From an uncultured Acholeplasmataceae bacterium (GTDB lineage Bacteria; Bacillota_I; Bacilli_A; Acholeplasmatales; Acholeplasmataceae): 64,000 bases of DNA. Below the pieces are notes generated by a model. That model saw only the letters and a program-made list of their open reading frames with translations, had not been told where the DNA came from and made no database searches. The position numbers and the translations under genes were made by a program. Below, piece by piece: positions 3,114 through 5,650 of this stretch (positions within the stretch are counted from its first letter, which is position 1; every line of letters starts with the position of its first letter). The DNA lies in contig CAUUGG010000001.1 in NCBI GenBank assembly GCA_963544825.1, positions 80,890-144,889 on the forward strand. Reading direction: 5' to 3'.

Positions 3114-3134
3114 TTTAGTTTTTTTAAACTAAAT
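3113..3134. other. 22-bp AT-only palindrome (ATTTAGTTT-tttt-AAACTAAAT) starting at the last base of the xer stop codon. It may be a weak terminator or a protein-binding site.
   Basis: I read the 9-bp arms and 4-nt centre directly from the sequence. Confidence 0.35.
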
Positions 3135-3146
3135 GATAAAAAAATT

Positions 3147-3212
3147 AAAAAGTTTAACTTATGTTGTGGAGCGAATATCCGCGATGCTGTTAAACTTTTT
3201 TTATTTTTTAAA
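3147..3212 (+). terminator. Putative terminator for the lepA-hemW-xer unit. It is a 12-bp inverted repeat AAAAAGTTTAAC/GTTAAACTTTTT with a 30-nt loop and a following T-run.
   Basis: The arms at 3147-3158 and 3189-3200 are perfectly complementary and are followed by TTTTTTATTTTTT. The loop is long, so function is uncertain. Confidence 0.35.
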
Positions 3213-3985
3213 TTTTTTTAAAATATAGACTTATCTTTACCATAAAATTGTGCGAAATTTAATTTAATAGCAAGTTTAGTATAATTAAACATTTATTAAA
3301 AATATAATATATTATTAAATCAAATATTTAGTGATTTTTTTATTAAAGATATTTAAGATATAAAAACAATGGAAGTATTAAATTATTTTTTATACAATCA
3401 TTTTGCTATATACTCATCTAAACTAAAAAAGTTTATCTCCGTCTATCTGTGTTTAATTTGGGCAGGTAAAAAAACTATGTTATTTTAAGACGCTCTAGGA
3501 CAAAACAGAATGGATAATTGCCCATAAAACATAATAATAATCGCTCAAAACACGCCTATAGAAAGTTTAGTATATGTAATGTTTAATTAAAAATAGTAAA
3601 AAAGTTTAATAGTATTTAAATAGTATTTATACCTGGGCACAATGCTAATAAATTTTAATTTATAGTTTTTCACTATTTTTTCCAAACTGAATACTCTGGA
3701 TAAATTATCGCTAAAAAACTCGTTTTTGAGCATAGAATAGTGAAAATTCTGATAGTTAATAGTAATCCACATTCCCACACATTTTCACTTGTCGGCTTCG
3801 CTAACTTGCTATATTTTGGTTTACATAATATATATTATAGGAACAAATAAAAAAATAACAAAAAACAGAAATAAACTATGCATTCACGCTAAAATTAAAA
3901 ATAAGGTGTATAAAAGTAGTTATACTTATTTACTTCTCTCTTTTTTATGTTCACATTTGAAAAATGAATATGAAAAAAACGCAAA

Positions 3986-4061
3986 ACGAGTTTTAACGAA
4001 ATTAAATTCACAGAATTGATGGAATGACTGTGAATTTTGTTAATTTTTTGCCAAAACTCGT
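3986..4061. other. Extended imperfect hairpin of about 76 nt with helices of 9, 5 and 10 bp. It may be an ncRNA element or a minus-strand terminator.
   Basis: ACGAGTTTT (3986-3994) pairs with AAAACTCGT (4053-4061). AAATT (3999-4003) pairs with AATTT (4042-4046). AAATTCACAG (4004-4013) pairs with CTGTGAATTT (4028-4037). On the minus strand the hairpin is followed by UUUGCGUUUUUUU. Confidence 0.45.
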
Positions 4062-4380
4062 GAGTTAGCAACTTAATTAACAATTAAACTTTTATGTAAT
4101 TTACAAATAAATATTAGTAAAACTAAACTAACTAAACTACTTCTTCTCTTAGAAATAATTAGGCTTATTTTTAAATTGTTGTTTTTTATGTTGTTATGTT
4201 TTTAGTGCAGCGTTTTTCTACTAAGACAAATGTGTCGAGTCTTATTATAAATAACTAAAAAATATTAAAAAAGTTTAGTTTTATTAAACTCACAATAATT
4301 AGCGAAAAAGTCATACTTTCTGAGGCGTTGTACTTTTCGTTTGAAGAAAAATTTACAAATATTTAAGTGTACATTTTACA

Positions 4381-4416
4381 TTTAAACTAATTTAAAACTG
4401 TTTTAATTAGTTTAAA
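4381..4416. repeat. Near-perfect 36-bp palindrome TTTAAACTAATTTAAAAC-t-GTTTTAATTAGTTTAAA
   Basis: The arms pair along about 17 bp with a single 1-nt bulge, read directly from the sequence. Confidence 0.5.
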
Positions 4417-4519
4417 AATATTAAACTCATTAAAATATCATTTTCGTGTTCCAATTCTTAAGTCATTAAACTTTTTTGTAGTTTTCGTAATGAAAAATTT
4501 AGTAAACTTTTTTTATTTC

Positions 4520-4528
4520 TGTGGATAA
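4520..4528 (-). promoter_or_regulatory. Perfect DnaA-box consensus (TGTGGATAA, the reverse complement of TTATCCACA)
   Basis: It is an exact 9-mer match, flanked by 12-mer repeat copies at 4502 and 4541. One-mismatch boxes lie at 3695-3703 (TCTGGATAA) and 3763-3771 (TAATCCACA). Confidence 0.35.
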
Positions 4529-5650
4529 TATAAAAACACTGTTAAACTTTTTTAGTTTTTTTAACTTTAGTTATTTTACATTCCTGTTCTTTTCTTAAAA
4601 TATAAATAGTGCATTATTTAAAAAGGGGACAACAAACGAAGATAAACTAATGCAAGAATTTGTAAATAATTTTCAGATATTGAAATTACAAATATTATCG
4701 CAGTCTTCTGCAGCCTATACCAATCCAACAGGTTTTTTTATGTCTATGCTTTATACGGTTTTATTTACAATAACTTCAAATTAAATCCAAAAATACTCTT
4801 CAATTTTTATTTTAAACTTTTTGTATTTAAAACTATTTTGTTTATTTAAATTAAACTATGCAGATTTTAAGTTTTATTTACTAAAAGCAAACAGGACATC
4901 TAAAATGTAAAGTTATTTTAAGTTTCACTAACACTTATAAACTTCATTTTCATTTTCGTAATTTTGCAGAGCGCTAATGTGGTTCTCCTTTTTGCAAGTG
5001 GGTGAAAAAGATTTAAAATAGTCACTTCAACCGAGCTTGTGTATGTTAATGATTATTTTAAAAAACGACACTTTGTAATAATTTCTAATTTATTTTTTTA
5101 AATTGCGCAAACTGTGGAAATCAGAATTTAAAAATGTCTGTGTTTAAAAATTGTATTTTATTAACTCTAAGGCACTTCTTAAATTAGATAAATTAAAATT
5201 AAGTTAAAGACAATCTTGGTGAACTCCTAGGTAAAGCAGTCAAAAAAAACTATAAACAGTTTACGTTTTTTTGGTTTAGTTTTGTTTTAAATATGCTAAG
5301 CATAAGTGAAACACATTGATAAATAATCTGGCGCAAATATTGTCTTAAGTGTGCATTAAACTTTTTTAATATAAATGTATTTAGTTTAATTAAAATAAAC
5401 TACTGGAATTTTTGTTATCGAACAAATATAACGCAGATTTTGTATAAAACAATTTAGCCATAAAAGTTATTCGTGATATTTTTAGGCCTGTATTTTCACT
5501 AACTAGCGTATTAAAAATGGTATTAAACATAAATATAAATAATTTTAAAAGTTTAATTAAAATAAACTGCGTAAATTACAAAAATCTAATTAATGTGTTT
5601 TTTATTTGCATATAATGTTATATAATATATAAGTATTACGGAGGAAAAAT

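What the first reader, a model, noticed from the sequence alone, without database searches (positions are those of the whole stretch)
3114..5650. 2.5-kb ORF-free, AT-rich repeat field directly downstream of a Xer-family recombinase gene
This genome is tightly packed. Many genes overlap, and every other gap over 150 bp either holds an RNA gene or is under 330 bp. Against that background, 2,537 bp between the xer stop and the eno start have no ORF above 76 codons in any frame and look much more AT-rich than the flanks. The stretch is structured. A 12-nt core (TTAAACTTTTTT and its complement AAAAAAGTTTAA) recurs at least 11 times in both orientations, at 3147, 3189, 3425, 3598, 4267, 4466, 4502, 4541, 4812, 5356 and 5547. 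That is far more than a rough composition-based expectation of well under one copy. Three copies spaced 36-39 bp apart (4466-4553) bracket a perfect DnaA box (4520-4528). The related half-site AGTTTA/TAAACT also forms many small palindromes: 3113-3134, 4273-4290, 4381-4416, and an exact 19-mer at 5383-5401 and 5550-5568. I see four possible readings. It could be a target field or dif-like region for the adjacent recombinase, since xerS sits next to difSL in streptococci and Xer-like recombinases sit next to invertible loci in mycoplasmas. It could be an array of binding sites for a nucleoid, termination or DnaA-titrating protein. It could be a decayed mobile element. It could be a cluster of small RNA or peptide genes. 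None of the annotated features explains it.
Basis: partly seen in the sequence, partly recalled or inferred. Interest (0 to 1): 0.72.

Follow-up and report, generated by a model that had tools for sequence, protein, structure and literature searches.

The report
Chromosome dif site in gene-free spacer

Summary
Window 3114-5650 has no ORF over 76 codons, has 19-28% GC, and is strongly enriched for TAAACTTTTT (10 copies against 0.29 expected).

A canonical 28-bp XerC/D-type dif site lies at 3818-3845, 705 bp downstream of a xerD-like gene. It matches B. subtilis dif at 24 of 28 positions and the published A. laidlawii dif at 24 of 28. It is identical in relatives whose Xer proteins are only 43-49% identical. 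Across Acholeplasmataceae, dif lies 1.5-4.2 kb downstream of xerD inside an ORF-free, AT-rich stretch, usually about 1 kb. This clade expanded that stretch to 2.5 kb.

Two copies of the 12-mer form the stem and U-tract of the lepA-hemN-xerD terminator hairpin. The other copies belong to a palindrome family, AGTTTA-N7-TAAACT (4 exact, 3 near-exact) plus half-sites. These are conserved islands in otherwise roughly neutrally evolving DNA. The same palindrome occurs beside dif in distant lineages, so they are probably sequence-specific protein-binding sites. Which protein binds them is not known.

The perfect DnaA box at 4520 is not conserved. I found no pseudogene, small conserved ORF, Rfam RNA, phage or plasmid signal. 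Overall this is a known system with a new local variant, of moderate interest.

The parts
2205..3113 (+). xerD-like tyrosine recombinase gene, last gene of the lepA-hemN-xerD operon
   Evidence: Pfam Phage_integrase plus Phage_int_SAM_1. NCBIfam scores: XerD 293 bits, XerC 276 bits, and it passes NF001399. Homologues are named XerD by their sources.
3146..3214 (+). Intrinsic (bidirectional-type) terminator of the operon. A 12-bp outer stem is made of two copies of the 12-mer (AAAAAGTTTAAC / GTTAAACTTTTT). An 8-bp inner stem and a U-tract follow.
   Evidence: Folding gives dG -29.9 kcal/mol and z -5.8. It is the top hit of the alifold scan of the gap (z -13). The outer stem is invariant. The inner stem keeps pairing through both-side changes at 4 pairs in 17 sequences.
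3763..3817 (+). Conserved module flanking the XerD arm of dif. It holds a DnaA-box-like TAATCCACA (3763-3771), a CCACAC core, a -35-like TTGTCG (3789-3794) and a -10-like TATTTT (3812-3817).
   Evidence: Pairwise identity in the clade is 0.94-0.99. The columns are conserved across 32 lineages. A DnaA-box-like 9-mer sits at a fixed position in 20 of 34 lineages. The promoter-like match is weak.
3818..3845 (-). dif, the chromosome dimer resolution site. Minus strand: TGTTCCTATAA-TATATA-TTATGTAAACC, that is XerC arm, 6-bp centre, XerD arm.
   Evidence: It matches B. subtilis dif at 24 of 28 positions. The next best site in the window scores 19 of 28, and the best of 1000 shuffles scores 21. The same 28-mer is present in the clade, and all 28 positions are identical in L021 and A. 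palmae. It matches the published A. laidlawii dif at 24 of 28.
3846..3865 (+). A-rich flank of the XerC arm, conserved with dif
   Evidence: Alignable across lineages up to about +40 to +58.
4272..4290 (.). Palindrome AGTTTA-N7-TAAACT, copy 1, preceded by A6
   Evidence: Exact match. Invariant in 11 species.
4409..4427 (.). Palindrome AGTTTA-N7-TAAACT, copy 2, inside the larger inverted repeat 4381-4416
   Evidence: Alifold z is about -5 for 4333-4451.
5383..5401 (.). Palindrome AGTTTA-N7-TAAACT, copy 3 (identical 19-mer)
5550..5568 (.). Palindrome AGTTTA-N7-TAAACT, copy 4 (identical 19-mer), about 85 nt upstream of the eno start
   Evidence: The block 5511-5650 has identity 0.94-0.96.
3273..3291 (.). 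One-mismatch palindrome. Other near copies are at 3112-3130 and 4839-4857.
3425..3436 (-). Half-site with T-tract (ATAAACTTTTTT), left of dif
3598..3609 (-). Half-site with T-tract (exact 12-mer), left of dif. A related copy is at 3562-3569 (-).
4084..4095 (+). Half-site, right of dif. It mirrors the 3562/3598 copies (inverted repeat 3559-3613 / 4080-4134).
   Evidence: I1.
4466..4553 (+). Three co-oriented half-sites with T-tracts (4466, 4502, 4542). They bracket the non-conserved DnaA box at 4520-4528.
4812..4823 (+). Half-site with T-tract
5356..5367 (+). Half-site with T-tract (exact 12-mer)
5651..6943 (+). eno (enolase), the right border of the gap
   Evidence: Pfam Enolase_N and Enolase_C.

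Best explanation
Shown. The stretch is the dif locus of an Acholeplasmataceae chromosome. A canonical 28-bp dif site lies at 3818-3845, with an XerC-type arm, a 6-bp centre and an XerD-type arm. It sits 705 bp downstream of a xerD-like gene. Linkage of xerD and dif, with dif inside an unusually long, AT-rich, ORF-free stretch, is a feature of the whole family. The 12-mer at 3146 and 3190 forms the two sides of the operon's terminator hairpin.

From established knowledge of XerCD/dif. After replication, chromosome dimers are resolved by Xer recombinases acting at dif near the terminus.

Inferred, about 50% sure. The rest of the gap is non-coding spacer that evolves at roughly the neutral rate. 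In this clade it grew to 2.5 kb, after loss or relocation of the metalloenzyme and asparaginase genes that relatives keep between xerD and dif, and through local duplications. Within the spacer, the AGTTTA-N7-TAAACT palindromes and their A-/T-tract half-sites are kept by selection as sequence-specific binding sites for a DNA-binding protein. The hexamer shares GTTTA with the outer XerD arm (GGTTTAC). The half-sites tend to point toward dif from both sides. My best guess is therefore a terminus- or dif-associated factor, either XerD itself or an unknown protein, rather than DnaA.
For: dif identification:
- It matches B. subtilis dif at 24 of 28 positions. The next best site in 64 kb scores 19. 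None of 1000 shuffles of the AT-rich gap exceeds 21.
- It lies in the most conserved block of the gap (0.94-0.99).
- All 28 positions are identical in L021 (Xer 49% identical) and in Alteracholeplasma palmae (Xer 43%). L023 matches at 25 of 28.
- It matches at 24 of 28 the dif that Kono et al. 2011 predicted for A. laidlawii at 716,560, about 48% of the way round that genome as I recall its length of about 1.5 Mb.
- A further 38 metagenome loci carry the site. xerD lies 1.5-4.2 kb to the same side, in the same orientation, wherever the flank is long enough.

Spacer:
- The ORF-free zone to the right of dif has a median length of about 1 kb across lineages.
- AT skew changes sign at dif: +0.115 on the left and -0.089 on the right, with 27 of 28 right zones negative.
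- Mean identity in the gap is 0.85, against 0.83-0.89 for third codon positions of the flanking genes.

Terminator.

Motif selection:
- Motif 8-mers have identity 0.981, against 0.879 +/- 0.025 for random 8-mers in the gap (P<1e-4). Seven of 13 are invariant, against 9% expected.
- There are 4 exact palindromes against 0.0045 expected. The probability of 4 pairs at one spacing is 0.0002.
- The same hexamers with N7 spacing recur in dif-flanking ORF-free zones of distant lineages: about +886 to +941 in nine loci, plus +465 and -323 in others. The spacers vary.

Polarity: TAAACTTT counts in the window plus L021 are 2+/7- on the left and 8+/2- on the right (p=0.023). GTTTAA in L021 is 16 toward dif and 4 away.
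Against: - No second Xer gene (xerC) was seen in the 64-kb window or in any fetched flank. Whether dif is cut by XerC plus XerD or by one enzyme is open.
- GC skew in the window is uninformative. Gene orientation switches about 14 kb to the right of dif rather than at it. The terminus position rests on AT skew, on the family pattern and on the published A. laidlawii position.
- The T-tract form of the motif is not enriched around dif outside this clade and L021. The array as such is therefore lineage-specific.
- Polarity in the window alone is not significant (p=0.10).
- Motif copies lack the inner ATAA of Xer arms. The palindrome's spacing (N7) cannot hold a Xer-type core, so XerD binding is only a resemblance.
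- The palindromes could act as weak RNA hairpins rather than DNA sites.
- Only 64 kb of this genome was available, so confinement of the motif to this locus is shown for the window and about 20-kb flanks of relatives only.
Confidence: 0.68

Rival explanations
1. The repeated word is transcription punctuation. The AAAAGTTTA-N7-TAAACTTTT units are weak A/U-rich bidirectional terminator hairpins, or RNA-level signals, that stop read-through from the convergent flanking operons into dif. The gap is a stack of such terminators and their decayed halves.
For: The 3146/3190 pair is clearly a terminator. Many copies carry an A-tract on one side and a T-tract on the other. In several distant lineages the palindrome lies 60-130 nt beyond the 3' end of the convergent minus-strand gene and is followed by TTTTG on that strand.
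Against: Ten of the other copies were folded correctly and none is preceded by a stable hairpin (z from -1.9 to +1.4). The 3425 copy was folded on the wrong side. A 6-9 bp stem with a single G-C pair is far weaker than known terminators. Terminators drift through compensatory change, yet here the same hexamers persist across lineages whose other non-coding DNA cannot be aligned. The word is rare at other gene ends in the window.
Confidence: 0.18
2. The gap is decayed DNA without present function beyond dif. It would consist of remains of lost genes or of an element integrated at dif (IMEX), with the repeats produced by local duplications.
For: More distant relatives carry a metalloenzyme gene, a gene of about 230 aa and an asparaginase gene between xerD and dif. 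These are absent here. The gap is a patchwork of 30-55-nt degenerate repeats. Overall it evolves at about the rate of third codon positions. L021 carries a pseudo-duplicate of a neighbouring gene inside its gap. Many assemblies break in the gap or at dif.
Against: tblastn with 505 ORFs from relatives found no gene remnant. Pfam found nothing in six frames. There is no DNA similarity to phages or plasmids, and the dif pattern is absent from viral contigs. No second dif-like site marks an element's far end. The motif islands are significantly more conserved than the surrounding gap. Gap length stays at about 2.54-2.61 kb in the 11 related genomes that span it.
Confidence: 0.12
3. It is a DnaA-binding or titration locus, or an origin-like region, built around DnaA boxes.
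For: A perfect DnaA box lies at 4520-4528 between motif copies. A DnaA-box-like 9-mer is conserved at a fixed position (-47 or -55) beside dif in 20 of 34 lineages, and 6 of those are perfect.
Against: The 4520 box is not conserved in close relatives. DnaA-box-like hits in the window are no more frequent than chance (18 observed, 14.4 expected). The window's own dif-proximal copy is imperfect (TAATCCACA). dif and the published A. laidlawii position place the locus at the terminus, not the origin. No dnaA or dnaN gene was found among the window genes scanned by Pfam (about 1-35 kb).
Confidence: 0.04
4. It is a recombinase target field for DNA inversion or phase variation, as in the mycoplasma vsa/vpma loci, or a cluster of small RNA or peptide genes.
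For: Oppositely oriented repeats lie next to a tyrosine recombinase gene. One is a 55-nt, 73% complementary inverted repeat that brackets dif (I1).
Against: There are no surface-protein or other ORFs to switch. The arrangement is collinear in the 11 related genomes that span the gap, with no inverted variants. The recombinase is the housekeeping xerD of a conserved operon. There is no Rfam hit at E<=1. No small ORF is conserved.
Confidence: 0.03

Closest known systems
XerC/XerD-dif chromosome dimer resolution (B. subtilis CodV/RipX-dif; E. coli XerCD-dif)
   Same: The site has the same 28-bp architecture of 11-6-11. It matches B. subtilis dif at 24 of 28 positions, with distinct XerC-type and XerD-type arms. 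It lies in non-coding DNA near where strand composition flips. The neighbouring recombinase scores as XerD/XerC.
   Different: The xerD gene lies within 0.7-4.2 kb of dif across the family. From my own knowledge, that linkage is typical of single-recombinase systems rather than XerCD systems. No xerC was seen in the available sequence. dif is embedded in a spacer of 1 kb or more, 2.5 kb here, in an otherwise compact genome.
Predicted dif of Acholeplasma laidlawii PG-8A (Kono et al. 2011, PMC3025954, supplementary table)
   Same: Same family. AGTGCCTATAATGTATATTATGTTAACC matches the window's site at 24 of 28. It is placed at 716,560, near the middle of that chromosome.
   Different: That paper lists only the 28-mer. 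It says nothing, in the text I searched, about xerD linkage, the gene-free spacer, the conserved flank or the palindrome.
XerS/difSL (streptococci, lactococci) and XerH/difH (Helicobacter, Campylobacter)
   Same: The recombinase gene lies next to its site.
   Different: Those sites are atypical, and a single dedicated recombinase acts on them. Here the site is the classical dif. The protein matches XerS poorly (116 bits against a cutoff of 267).
XerD-binding sites (XDS) that unload SMC in the B. subtilis terminus (Karaboja et al. 2021; the paper was not readable here, so this is from memory)
   Same: The idea of extra terminus-located sites related to the XerD arm and acting without recombination. 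The repeated hexamer AGTTTA shares GTTTA with the XerD arm GGTTTAC, and the copies cluster round dif.
   Different: The resemblance covers only 5 nt. The copies lack the inner arm. The hexamer does not co-vary with the dif arm: lineages with GGTTAAC still carry GTTTA. No binding data exist.
KOPS / SRS (FtsK/SpoIIIE-orienting polar sequences) and the dif activity zone
   Same: The words tend to point toward dif from both sides.
   Different: KOPS are skewed genome-wide and are G-rich. This word is AT-rich, confined to the spacer, and shows no polarity further out in the window. No ftsK was seen among the window genes scanned by Pfam (about 1-35 kb).

Membership tests
XerCD-type dif site | 28-bp site made of two 11-bp arms with inner ATAA/TTAT flanking a 6-bp centre, close to the consensus of related phyla | tested here: met
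   TGTTCCTATAA-TATATA-TTATGTAAACC. It matches B. subtilis dif at 24 of 28 and is unique in the window (next best 19). None of 1000 shuffles exceeds 21. It matches A. laidlawii dif at 24 of 28.
XerCD-type dif site | Conserved across related genomes while the surrounding non-coding DNA diverges | tested here: met
   All 28 positions are identical in lineages with 43-49% Xer identity. 38 metagenome loci carry it. Only about -55 to +58 around it can be aligned.
XerCD-type dif site | Single copy per chromosome, located at the replication terminus (skew switch) | tested here: inconclusive
   There is one copy in 64 kb. AT skew of ORF-free DNA flips at dif across the family. GC skew is flat, and gene orientation switches about 14 kb away. 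The whole genome was not available.
XerCD-type dif site | Genome encodes the cognate recombinases XerC and XerD | tested here: inconclusive
   A XerD-like gene is adjacent. No second Xer gene was found in the window or flanks. The rest of the genome was not seen.
XerCD-type dif site | Bound and recombined by Xer proteins, with FtsK dependence | not testable with these tools
   This needs EMSA, in vitro recombination or genetics.
XerS/difSL-type single-recombinase module | Atypical site of about 31 bp and a XerS-family recombinase | tested here: not met
   The site is the classical 28-mer. The XerS model scores 115.7 bits against a cutoff of 267.
DnaA-box cluster (oriC, datA-like) | Several conserved DnaA boxes, more than chance gives | tested here: not met
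   There is one perfect box, and it is not conserved. Window-wide hits with up to 1 mismatch number 18 against 14.4 expected. A single DnaA-box-like 9-mer beside dif is conserved family-wide, but that is one site and not a cluster.
Recombinase-driven invertible or phase-variable locus | Switchable genes or promoters flanked by inverted recombination sites, with structural variants among genomes | tested here: not met
   There are no ORFs. The arrangement is collinear in the 11 related genomes that span the gap.
IMEX or decayed mobile element at dif | Element genes or remnants, with a second dif-like junction | tested here: not met
   Searches were all negative.
Intrinsic terminator | Stable stem-loop followed by a U-tract at the end of an operon, with the stem kept by compensatory change | tested here: met
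   This holds for 3146-3214 only. Ten other copies folded on the correct side fail the test. The 3425 copy was folded on the wrong side.
KOPS-like polar sequences | Genome-wide strand skew that switches at dif | tested here: not met
   Local polarity is weak (p=0.10 alone, 0.023 with L021). There is no polarity outside the gap in the window.
Known RNA families (Rfam 15) | Covariance-model match | tested here: not met
   Nothing at gathering score or at E<=1. Nothing in 12 related loci.

The most novel reading that the evidence does not exclude
dif in Acholeplasmataceae is the centre of a larger terminus module and not a bare 28-mer. On the XerD-arm side there is a fixed-position DnaA-box-like element and a promoter-like element. 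Sequence-specific AGTTTA-N7-TAAACT sites lie in a gene-free spacer that the genome is obliged to keep. In this clade they are amplified into a roughly mirror-symmetric array. Under this reading they bind XerD or a new terminus protein that organises the terminus, for example by unloading SMC, orienting or stopping a translocase, or trapping forks. That would be a compact, sequence-defined terminus organiser in a reduced Firmicute-derived genome.
Probability: 0.2. Interest if true: 0.75.

Novelty: new variant of a known kind. Interest (0 to 1): 0.45.

Why it matters
It turns an unexplained 2.5-kb hole in a compact genome into a recognisable landmark, the chromosome dimer-resolution site, and so probably marks the replication terminus. 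That is useful for annotating Acholeplasmataceae genomes and MAGs, whose assemblies often break exactly here.

The less ordinary part is family-wide:
- dif is always close to xerD.
- dif always sits in a gene-free spacer of about 1 kb or more.
- dif has a conserved flank with a DnaA-box-like element.
- dif is accompanied by a conserved palindrome.

How the terminus is organised in Firmicutes and Mollicutes, which have no MatP or Tus, is poorly understood. If these elements bind a terminus factor, they would give that question a small and tractable model.

Tried and rejected
- Genetic code 4: no longer ORFs appear in the gap. The genome reads as code 11.
- Rfam: nothing at gathering score or at E<=1, and nothing in 12 related loci.
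- Small ORFs: none of 15 ORFs of 25 aa or more is intact in all relatives, and none shows codon periodicity.
- Pseudogenes: tblastn with 505 ORFs from relatives and Pfam on six X-masked frames found nothing.
- Mobile DNA: no match in phages or plasmids at distant sensitivity. The dif pattern is absent from viral contigs.
- Exact look-up of the Xer protein found nothing on record.
- Terminator reading for all copies: only the first pair folds. One of my minus-strand extracts (3375-3436) took the wrong side, so the 3425 copy remains untested.
- Motif as a family-wide companion of dif: the T-tract form is not enriched outside this clade and L021.
- Conserved RNA structure in the family-wide dif flanks: none.
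- GAAGAAG (the KOPS word of L. lactis, from memory) is polar toward dif, 72:20 for AAGAAG. By my own rough estimate, not a computed test, general purine and AT skew could account for this.
- 64-aa XRE-family HTH gene (48683-48877) as the binder: it has AAAGTTTAA before its RBS, but that is a single copy, and the whole upstream region is conserved anyway. It is a lead only.
- Literature: the search for 'XDS' was swamped by crystallography papers, and Karaboja 2021 could not be read.

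
Full report
1. THE OBSERVATION

The window reads as a code-11, low-GC genome with tightly packed housekeeping genes. Related sequences identify it as an uncultured Acholeplasmataceae lineage.

A xerD-like gene occupies 2205-3113 and eno occupies 5651-6943. The 2,537 bases between them hold no ORF over 76 codons under table 11 and none of 100 or more under table 4. GC falls to 0.19-0.28, against 0.33-0.44 in the flanks.

With up to one mismatch there are 12 copies in the gap and 6 in the other 61.5 kb.

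Enrichment against shuffles of the gap's own dinucleotide composition is strong:
- TAAACTTTTT: 10 observed, 0.29 expected.
- TAAACT/AGTTTA: 30 observed, 7 expected.

AAAGTTTA/TAAACTTT is also the top over-represented 8-mer found de novo. Two small corrections apply: 'eleven copies' requires allowing one or two mismatches, and some coordinates are off by one.

The most conserved block of the gap contains, at 3818-3845, GGTTTACATAATATATATTATAGGAACA. Its reverse complement is TGTTCCTATAA-TATATA-TTATGTAAACC, which is a classical 11-6-11 dif site.

- It matches B. subtilis dif at 24 of 28 positions. The next best site in the whole window scores 19. None of 1000 shuffles of the AT-rich gap exceeds 21.
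- It matches at 24 of 28 the dif predicted for Acholeplasma laidlawii PG-8A by Kono et al. 2011 (AGTGCCTATAATGTATATTATGTTAACC at position 716,560, near mid-chromosome).
- The site is present in every clade member that spans that position.
- All 28 positions are identical in L021, whose Xer protein is only 49% identical, and in Alteracholeplasma palmae J233 (43%). An Acholeplasma sp. MAG matches at 25 of 28.
- A pattern scan found 38 more metagenome loci and none in viral contigs.
- Wherever the flank is long enough, xerD lies 1.5-4.2 kb to the same side of dif in the same relative orientation, as the last or next-to-last gene of a lepA-hemN-xerD operon.
- The recombinase scores best against XerD (293 bits) and then XerC (276 bits). 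It scores poorly against XerS.

3. THE SPACER IS A FAMILY TRAIT, ENLARGED HERE

In nearly all lineages dif sits in a stretch free of ORFs of 100 aa or more and poorer in GC than its surroundings. Typically 100-200 nt lie on the XerD-arm side and about 1 kb on the XerC-arm side.

The common layout is xerD, metalloenzyme gene (+), a gene of about 230 aa (-), asparaginase (-), dif, about 1 kb of free DNA, then minus-strand genes. In the window's clade the three genes between xerD and dif are absent and eno follows on the right. That gives 705 bp on the left and 1.8 kb on the right. L021 has 4 kb at 10-16% GC.

Among the 11 related genomes that span it, the gap keeps its length at about 2.54-2.61 kb. 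Among the window and its 10 closest relatives the gap aligns throughout, with a mean pairwise identity of 0.85. That is about the same as third codon positions of the flanking genes (0.83-0.89). Most of the gap therefore evolves at roughly the neutral rate.

Between lineages, only about -55 to +58 around dif can be aligned. In ORF-free DNA across the family, AT skew changes sign at dif: +0.115 on the left and -0.089 on the right, with 27 of 28 right zones negative. GC skew does not change sign. This fits a strand switch at dif but does not prove it. In the window, gene orientation switches about 14 kb further right, and GC skew is flat.

4. WHAT THE GAP IS NOT

- Not decayed genes that can still be recognised. 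tblastn with 505 ORFs from relatives found nothing real, and Pfam on all six frames found nothing.
- Not phage or plasmid DNA.
- No second dif-like site that would mark an integrated element.
- No ORF of 25 aa or more is intact across relatives or shows codon periodicity.
- No Rfam family even at E<=1.
- The perfect DnaA box at 4520-4528 is real but variable among close relatives. DnaA-box-like hits in the window are at chance level (18 observed, 14.4 expected).

5. THE 12-MER RESOLVES INTO TWO THINGS

(a) A terminator. The copies at 3146 (-) and 3190 (+) are the two sides of a 12-bp outer stem. This encloses an 8-bp inner stem and is followed by a U-tract. The fold has dG -29.9 kcal/mol and z -5.8. 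It is the strongest signal in an alifold scan of the gap. In 17 sequences the outer stem is invariant, and the inner stem keeps pairing through both-side changes at four pairs. This is the intrinsic terminator of the lepA-hemN-xerD operon. Ten other copies folded on the correct side are not preceded by a stable hairpin. The 3425 copy was folded on the wrong side and remains untested.

(b) A palindrome family, AGTTTA-N7-TAAACT.
- Four exact copies lie at 4272, 4409, 5383 and 5550. Three one-mismatch copies lie at 3112, 3273 and 4839.
- Shuffles give 0.0045 exact copies on average.
- Given the hexamer counts, four pairs at one spacing has P=0.0002.
- The remaining 12-mer copies are half-sites extended by an A- or T-tract.
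- These elements are islands of conservation. Identity is 0.981, against 0.879 +/- 0.025 for random 8-mers in the gap (P<1e-4). Seven of 13 8-mers and 18 of 30 hexamers are invariant, against 9% and 14.5% expected.
- The same palindrome, with the same hexamers but different spacers, occurs in the dif-flanking ORF-free zones of distant lineages. It lies at about +886 to +941 in nine loci, at +465 in L027/L038 and at -323 in L046/L049/L063.

The hexamer sequence is kept, and not merely complementarity, across lineages whose other non-coding DNA cannot be aligned. That argues for sequence-specific recognition by a protein rather than a generic hairpin.

The T-tract half-site array itself is specific to this clade and, in a related form (GGTTTAAT), to L021. 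The half-sites tend to point toward dif from both sides. In the window the counts are 1+/4- on the left and 6+/2- on the right (p=0.10). With L021 added, p=0.023. GTTTAA in L021 is 16 toward and 4 away. A 55-nt, 73% complementary inverted repeat (3559-3613 / 4080-4134) brackets dif roughly symmetrically.

The hexamer shares GTTTA with the outer XerD arm (GGTTTAC). However, the copies lack the inner arm, the N7 spacing cannot hold a Xer core, and the hexamer does not co-vary with the arm. XerD binding is a lead only.

6. AN EXTENDED dif MODULE (SEEN IN PASSING)

Thirty-two non-redundant lineages were aligned without gaps on the XerD-arm side. The alignment shows fixed-position elements:
- A DnaA-box-like 9-mer, within one mismatch of TTATCCACA, in 20 of 34 lineages. 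Six are perfect, all are on the same strand, and 15 sit exactly at -47. The background expectation is 0.017 per 50 nt. The window has TAATCCACA at 3763-3771.
- A -35-like TTGAC at -29.
- A -10-like hexamer abutting dif. This promoter-like match is weak, averaging 7.8 of 12.

These elements persist in lineages that have lost the neighbouring asparagine gene, so they go with dif. No conserved RNA structure was found in the flanks.

7. MECHANISM

Shown: the site, its conservation, its linkage to xerD, the terminator, the selective constraint on the palindromes, and their recurrence beside dif in other lineages.

From established knowledge: XerC/D-type recombinases resolve chromosome dimers at dif near the terminus.

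Inferred: the spacer is non-coding terminus DNA. The palindromes and half-sites are binding sites for a dif- or terminus-associated protein, either XerD itself or an unknown factor. A weaker alternative is that they act as RNA-level punctuation.

8. COMPARISON AND NOVELTY

The core is an ordinary XerCD-type dif, already predicted for one member of the family (Kono 2011).

The text I searched in Kono 2011 mentions none of the following, and I know of no earlier report of them; no dedicated literature search was run:
- The family-wide xerD-dif linkage.
- The obligatory gene-free spacer.
- The conserved flank with a DnaA-box-like element.
- The conserved palindrome and its amplification in this clade.

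I rate this a new variant of a known kind, of moderate interest.

Limits:
- Only 64 kb of this genome and flanks of 20 kb or less from relatives could be examined.
- No xerC or ftsK was seen in that sequence.
- No binding or expression data exist.

Noticed in passing
window 3763-3817; L021-L064 at -60 to -1 from dif: The XerD-arm side of dif has a conserved flank across the family. A DnaA-box-like 9-mer sits at a fixed position: 15 lineages at exactly -47, six perfect TTATCCACA, always on the same strand. A TTGAC-like hexamer lies at -29 and a -10-like hexamer abuts dif. The elements persist where the neighbouring gene is lost.
   Followed up: partly
L023, L028, L030, L033, L043, L050, L057, L059, L064 at about +886 to +941 from dif: Nine distant lineages carry the AGTTTA-N7-TAAACT palindrome (exact or with one mismatch) at nearly the same distance from dif. 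The roughly 850 nt in between cannot be aligned between them. The architecture and length look conserved without sequence conservation.
   Followed up: partly
L001, L003, L007, L009, L015, L016, L017, L026 (contig ends inside the gap); L031, L035, L037, L045, L061 (contig ends within 3-85 nt of dif): MAG and metagenome assemblies very often break inside this spacer or right at dif. Possible causes are low coverage of AT-rich terminus DNA, a dif block shared between co-occurring strains, or real structural heterogeneity. I did not resolve which.
   Followed up: no
ORF-free zones flanking dif in 33 loci (L021-L064): AT skew flips sign at dif: +0.115 on the left and -0.089 on the right, with 27 of 28 right zones negative. 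GC skew does not flip. Purine-rich words such as AAGAAG point toward dif 72:20. GAAGAAG is, from memory, the KOPS word of Lactococcus lactis. A conserved CTTCTTCT lies at window 4140-4147.
   Followed up: partly
window 48439-48907: The only other large gap I checked holds an unlisted 64-aa XRE-family HTH gene (48683-48877). Its protein is identical in at least 8 related genomes. The 240-nt upstream region is very conserved (91%), and AAAGTTTAA lies just before the RBS.
   Followed up: partly
L023 8899-11890, L024 8902-11484, compared with window 3114-3817: More distant relatives carry a metalloenzyme-family gene, a gene of about 230 aa and an asparaginase gene between xerD and dif. The window's clade and L021 lack them, with no detectable remnant.
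   Followed up: yes
L021 9036-13545: A sister lineage (Xer 49% identical) has a 4-kb gene-free zone around dif at only 10-16% GC. Next to xer it has a 170-aa membrane-protein ORF, followed by a decayed partial duplicate (9687-9972). Its own over-represented polar word is GGTTTAAT/TATTAAAC.
   Followed up: partly
window 28929-31688 (-); also 16735-17250 (+), 17329-17841 (+), 32774-33322 (-): A 919-aa ORF and three ORFs of 170-182 aa have no Pfam match at the thresholds used.
   Followed up: no
window 1306-1324: An exact AGTTTA-N7-TAAACT palindrome lies inside the hemN coding sequence. It is kept at the same place in all clade members, probably through coding constraint. Similar one-mismatch copies sit at two fixed positions inside the asparaginase gene of other lineages.
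   Followed up: no
window 3107-3137: A second small hairpin (AUCAU...AUGAU with inner UUUAGUUU/AAACUAAA) overlaps the xerD stop codon, just upstream of the main terminator.
   Followed up: no
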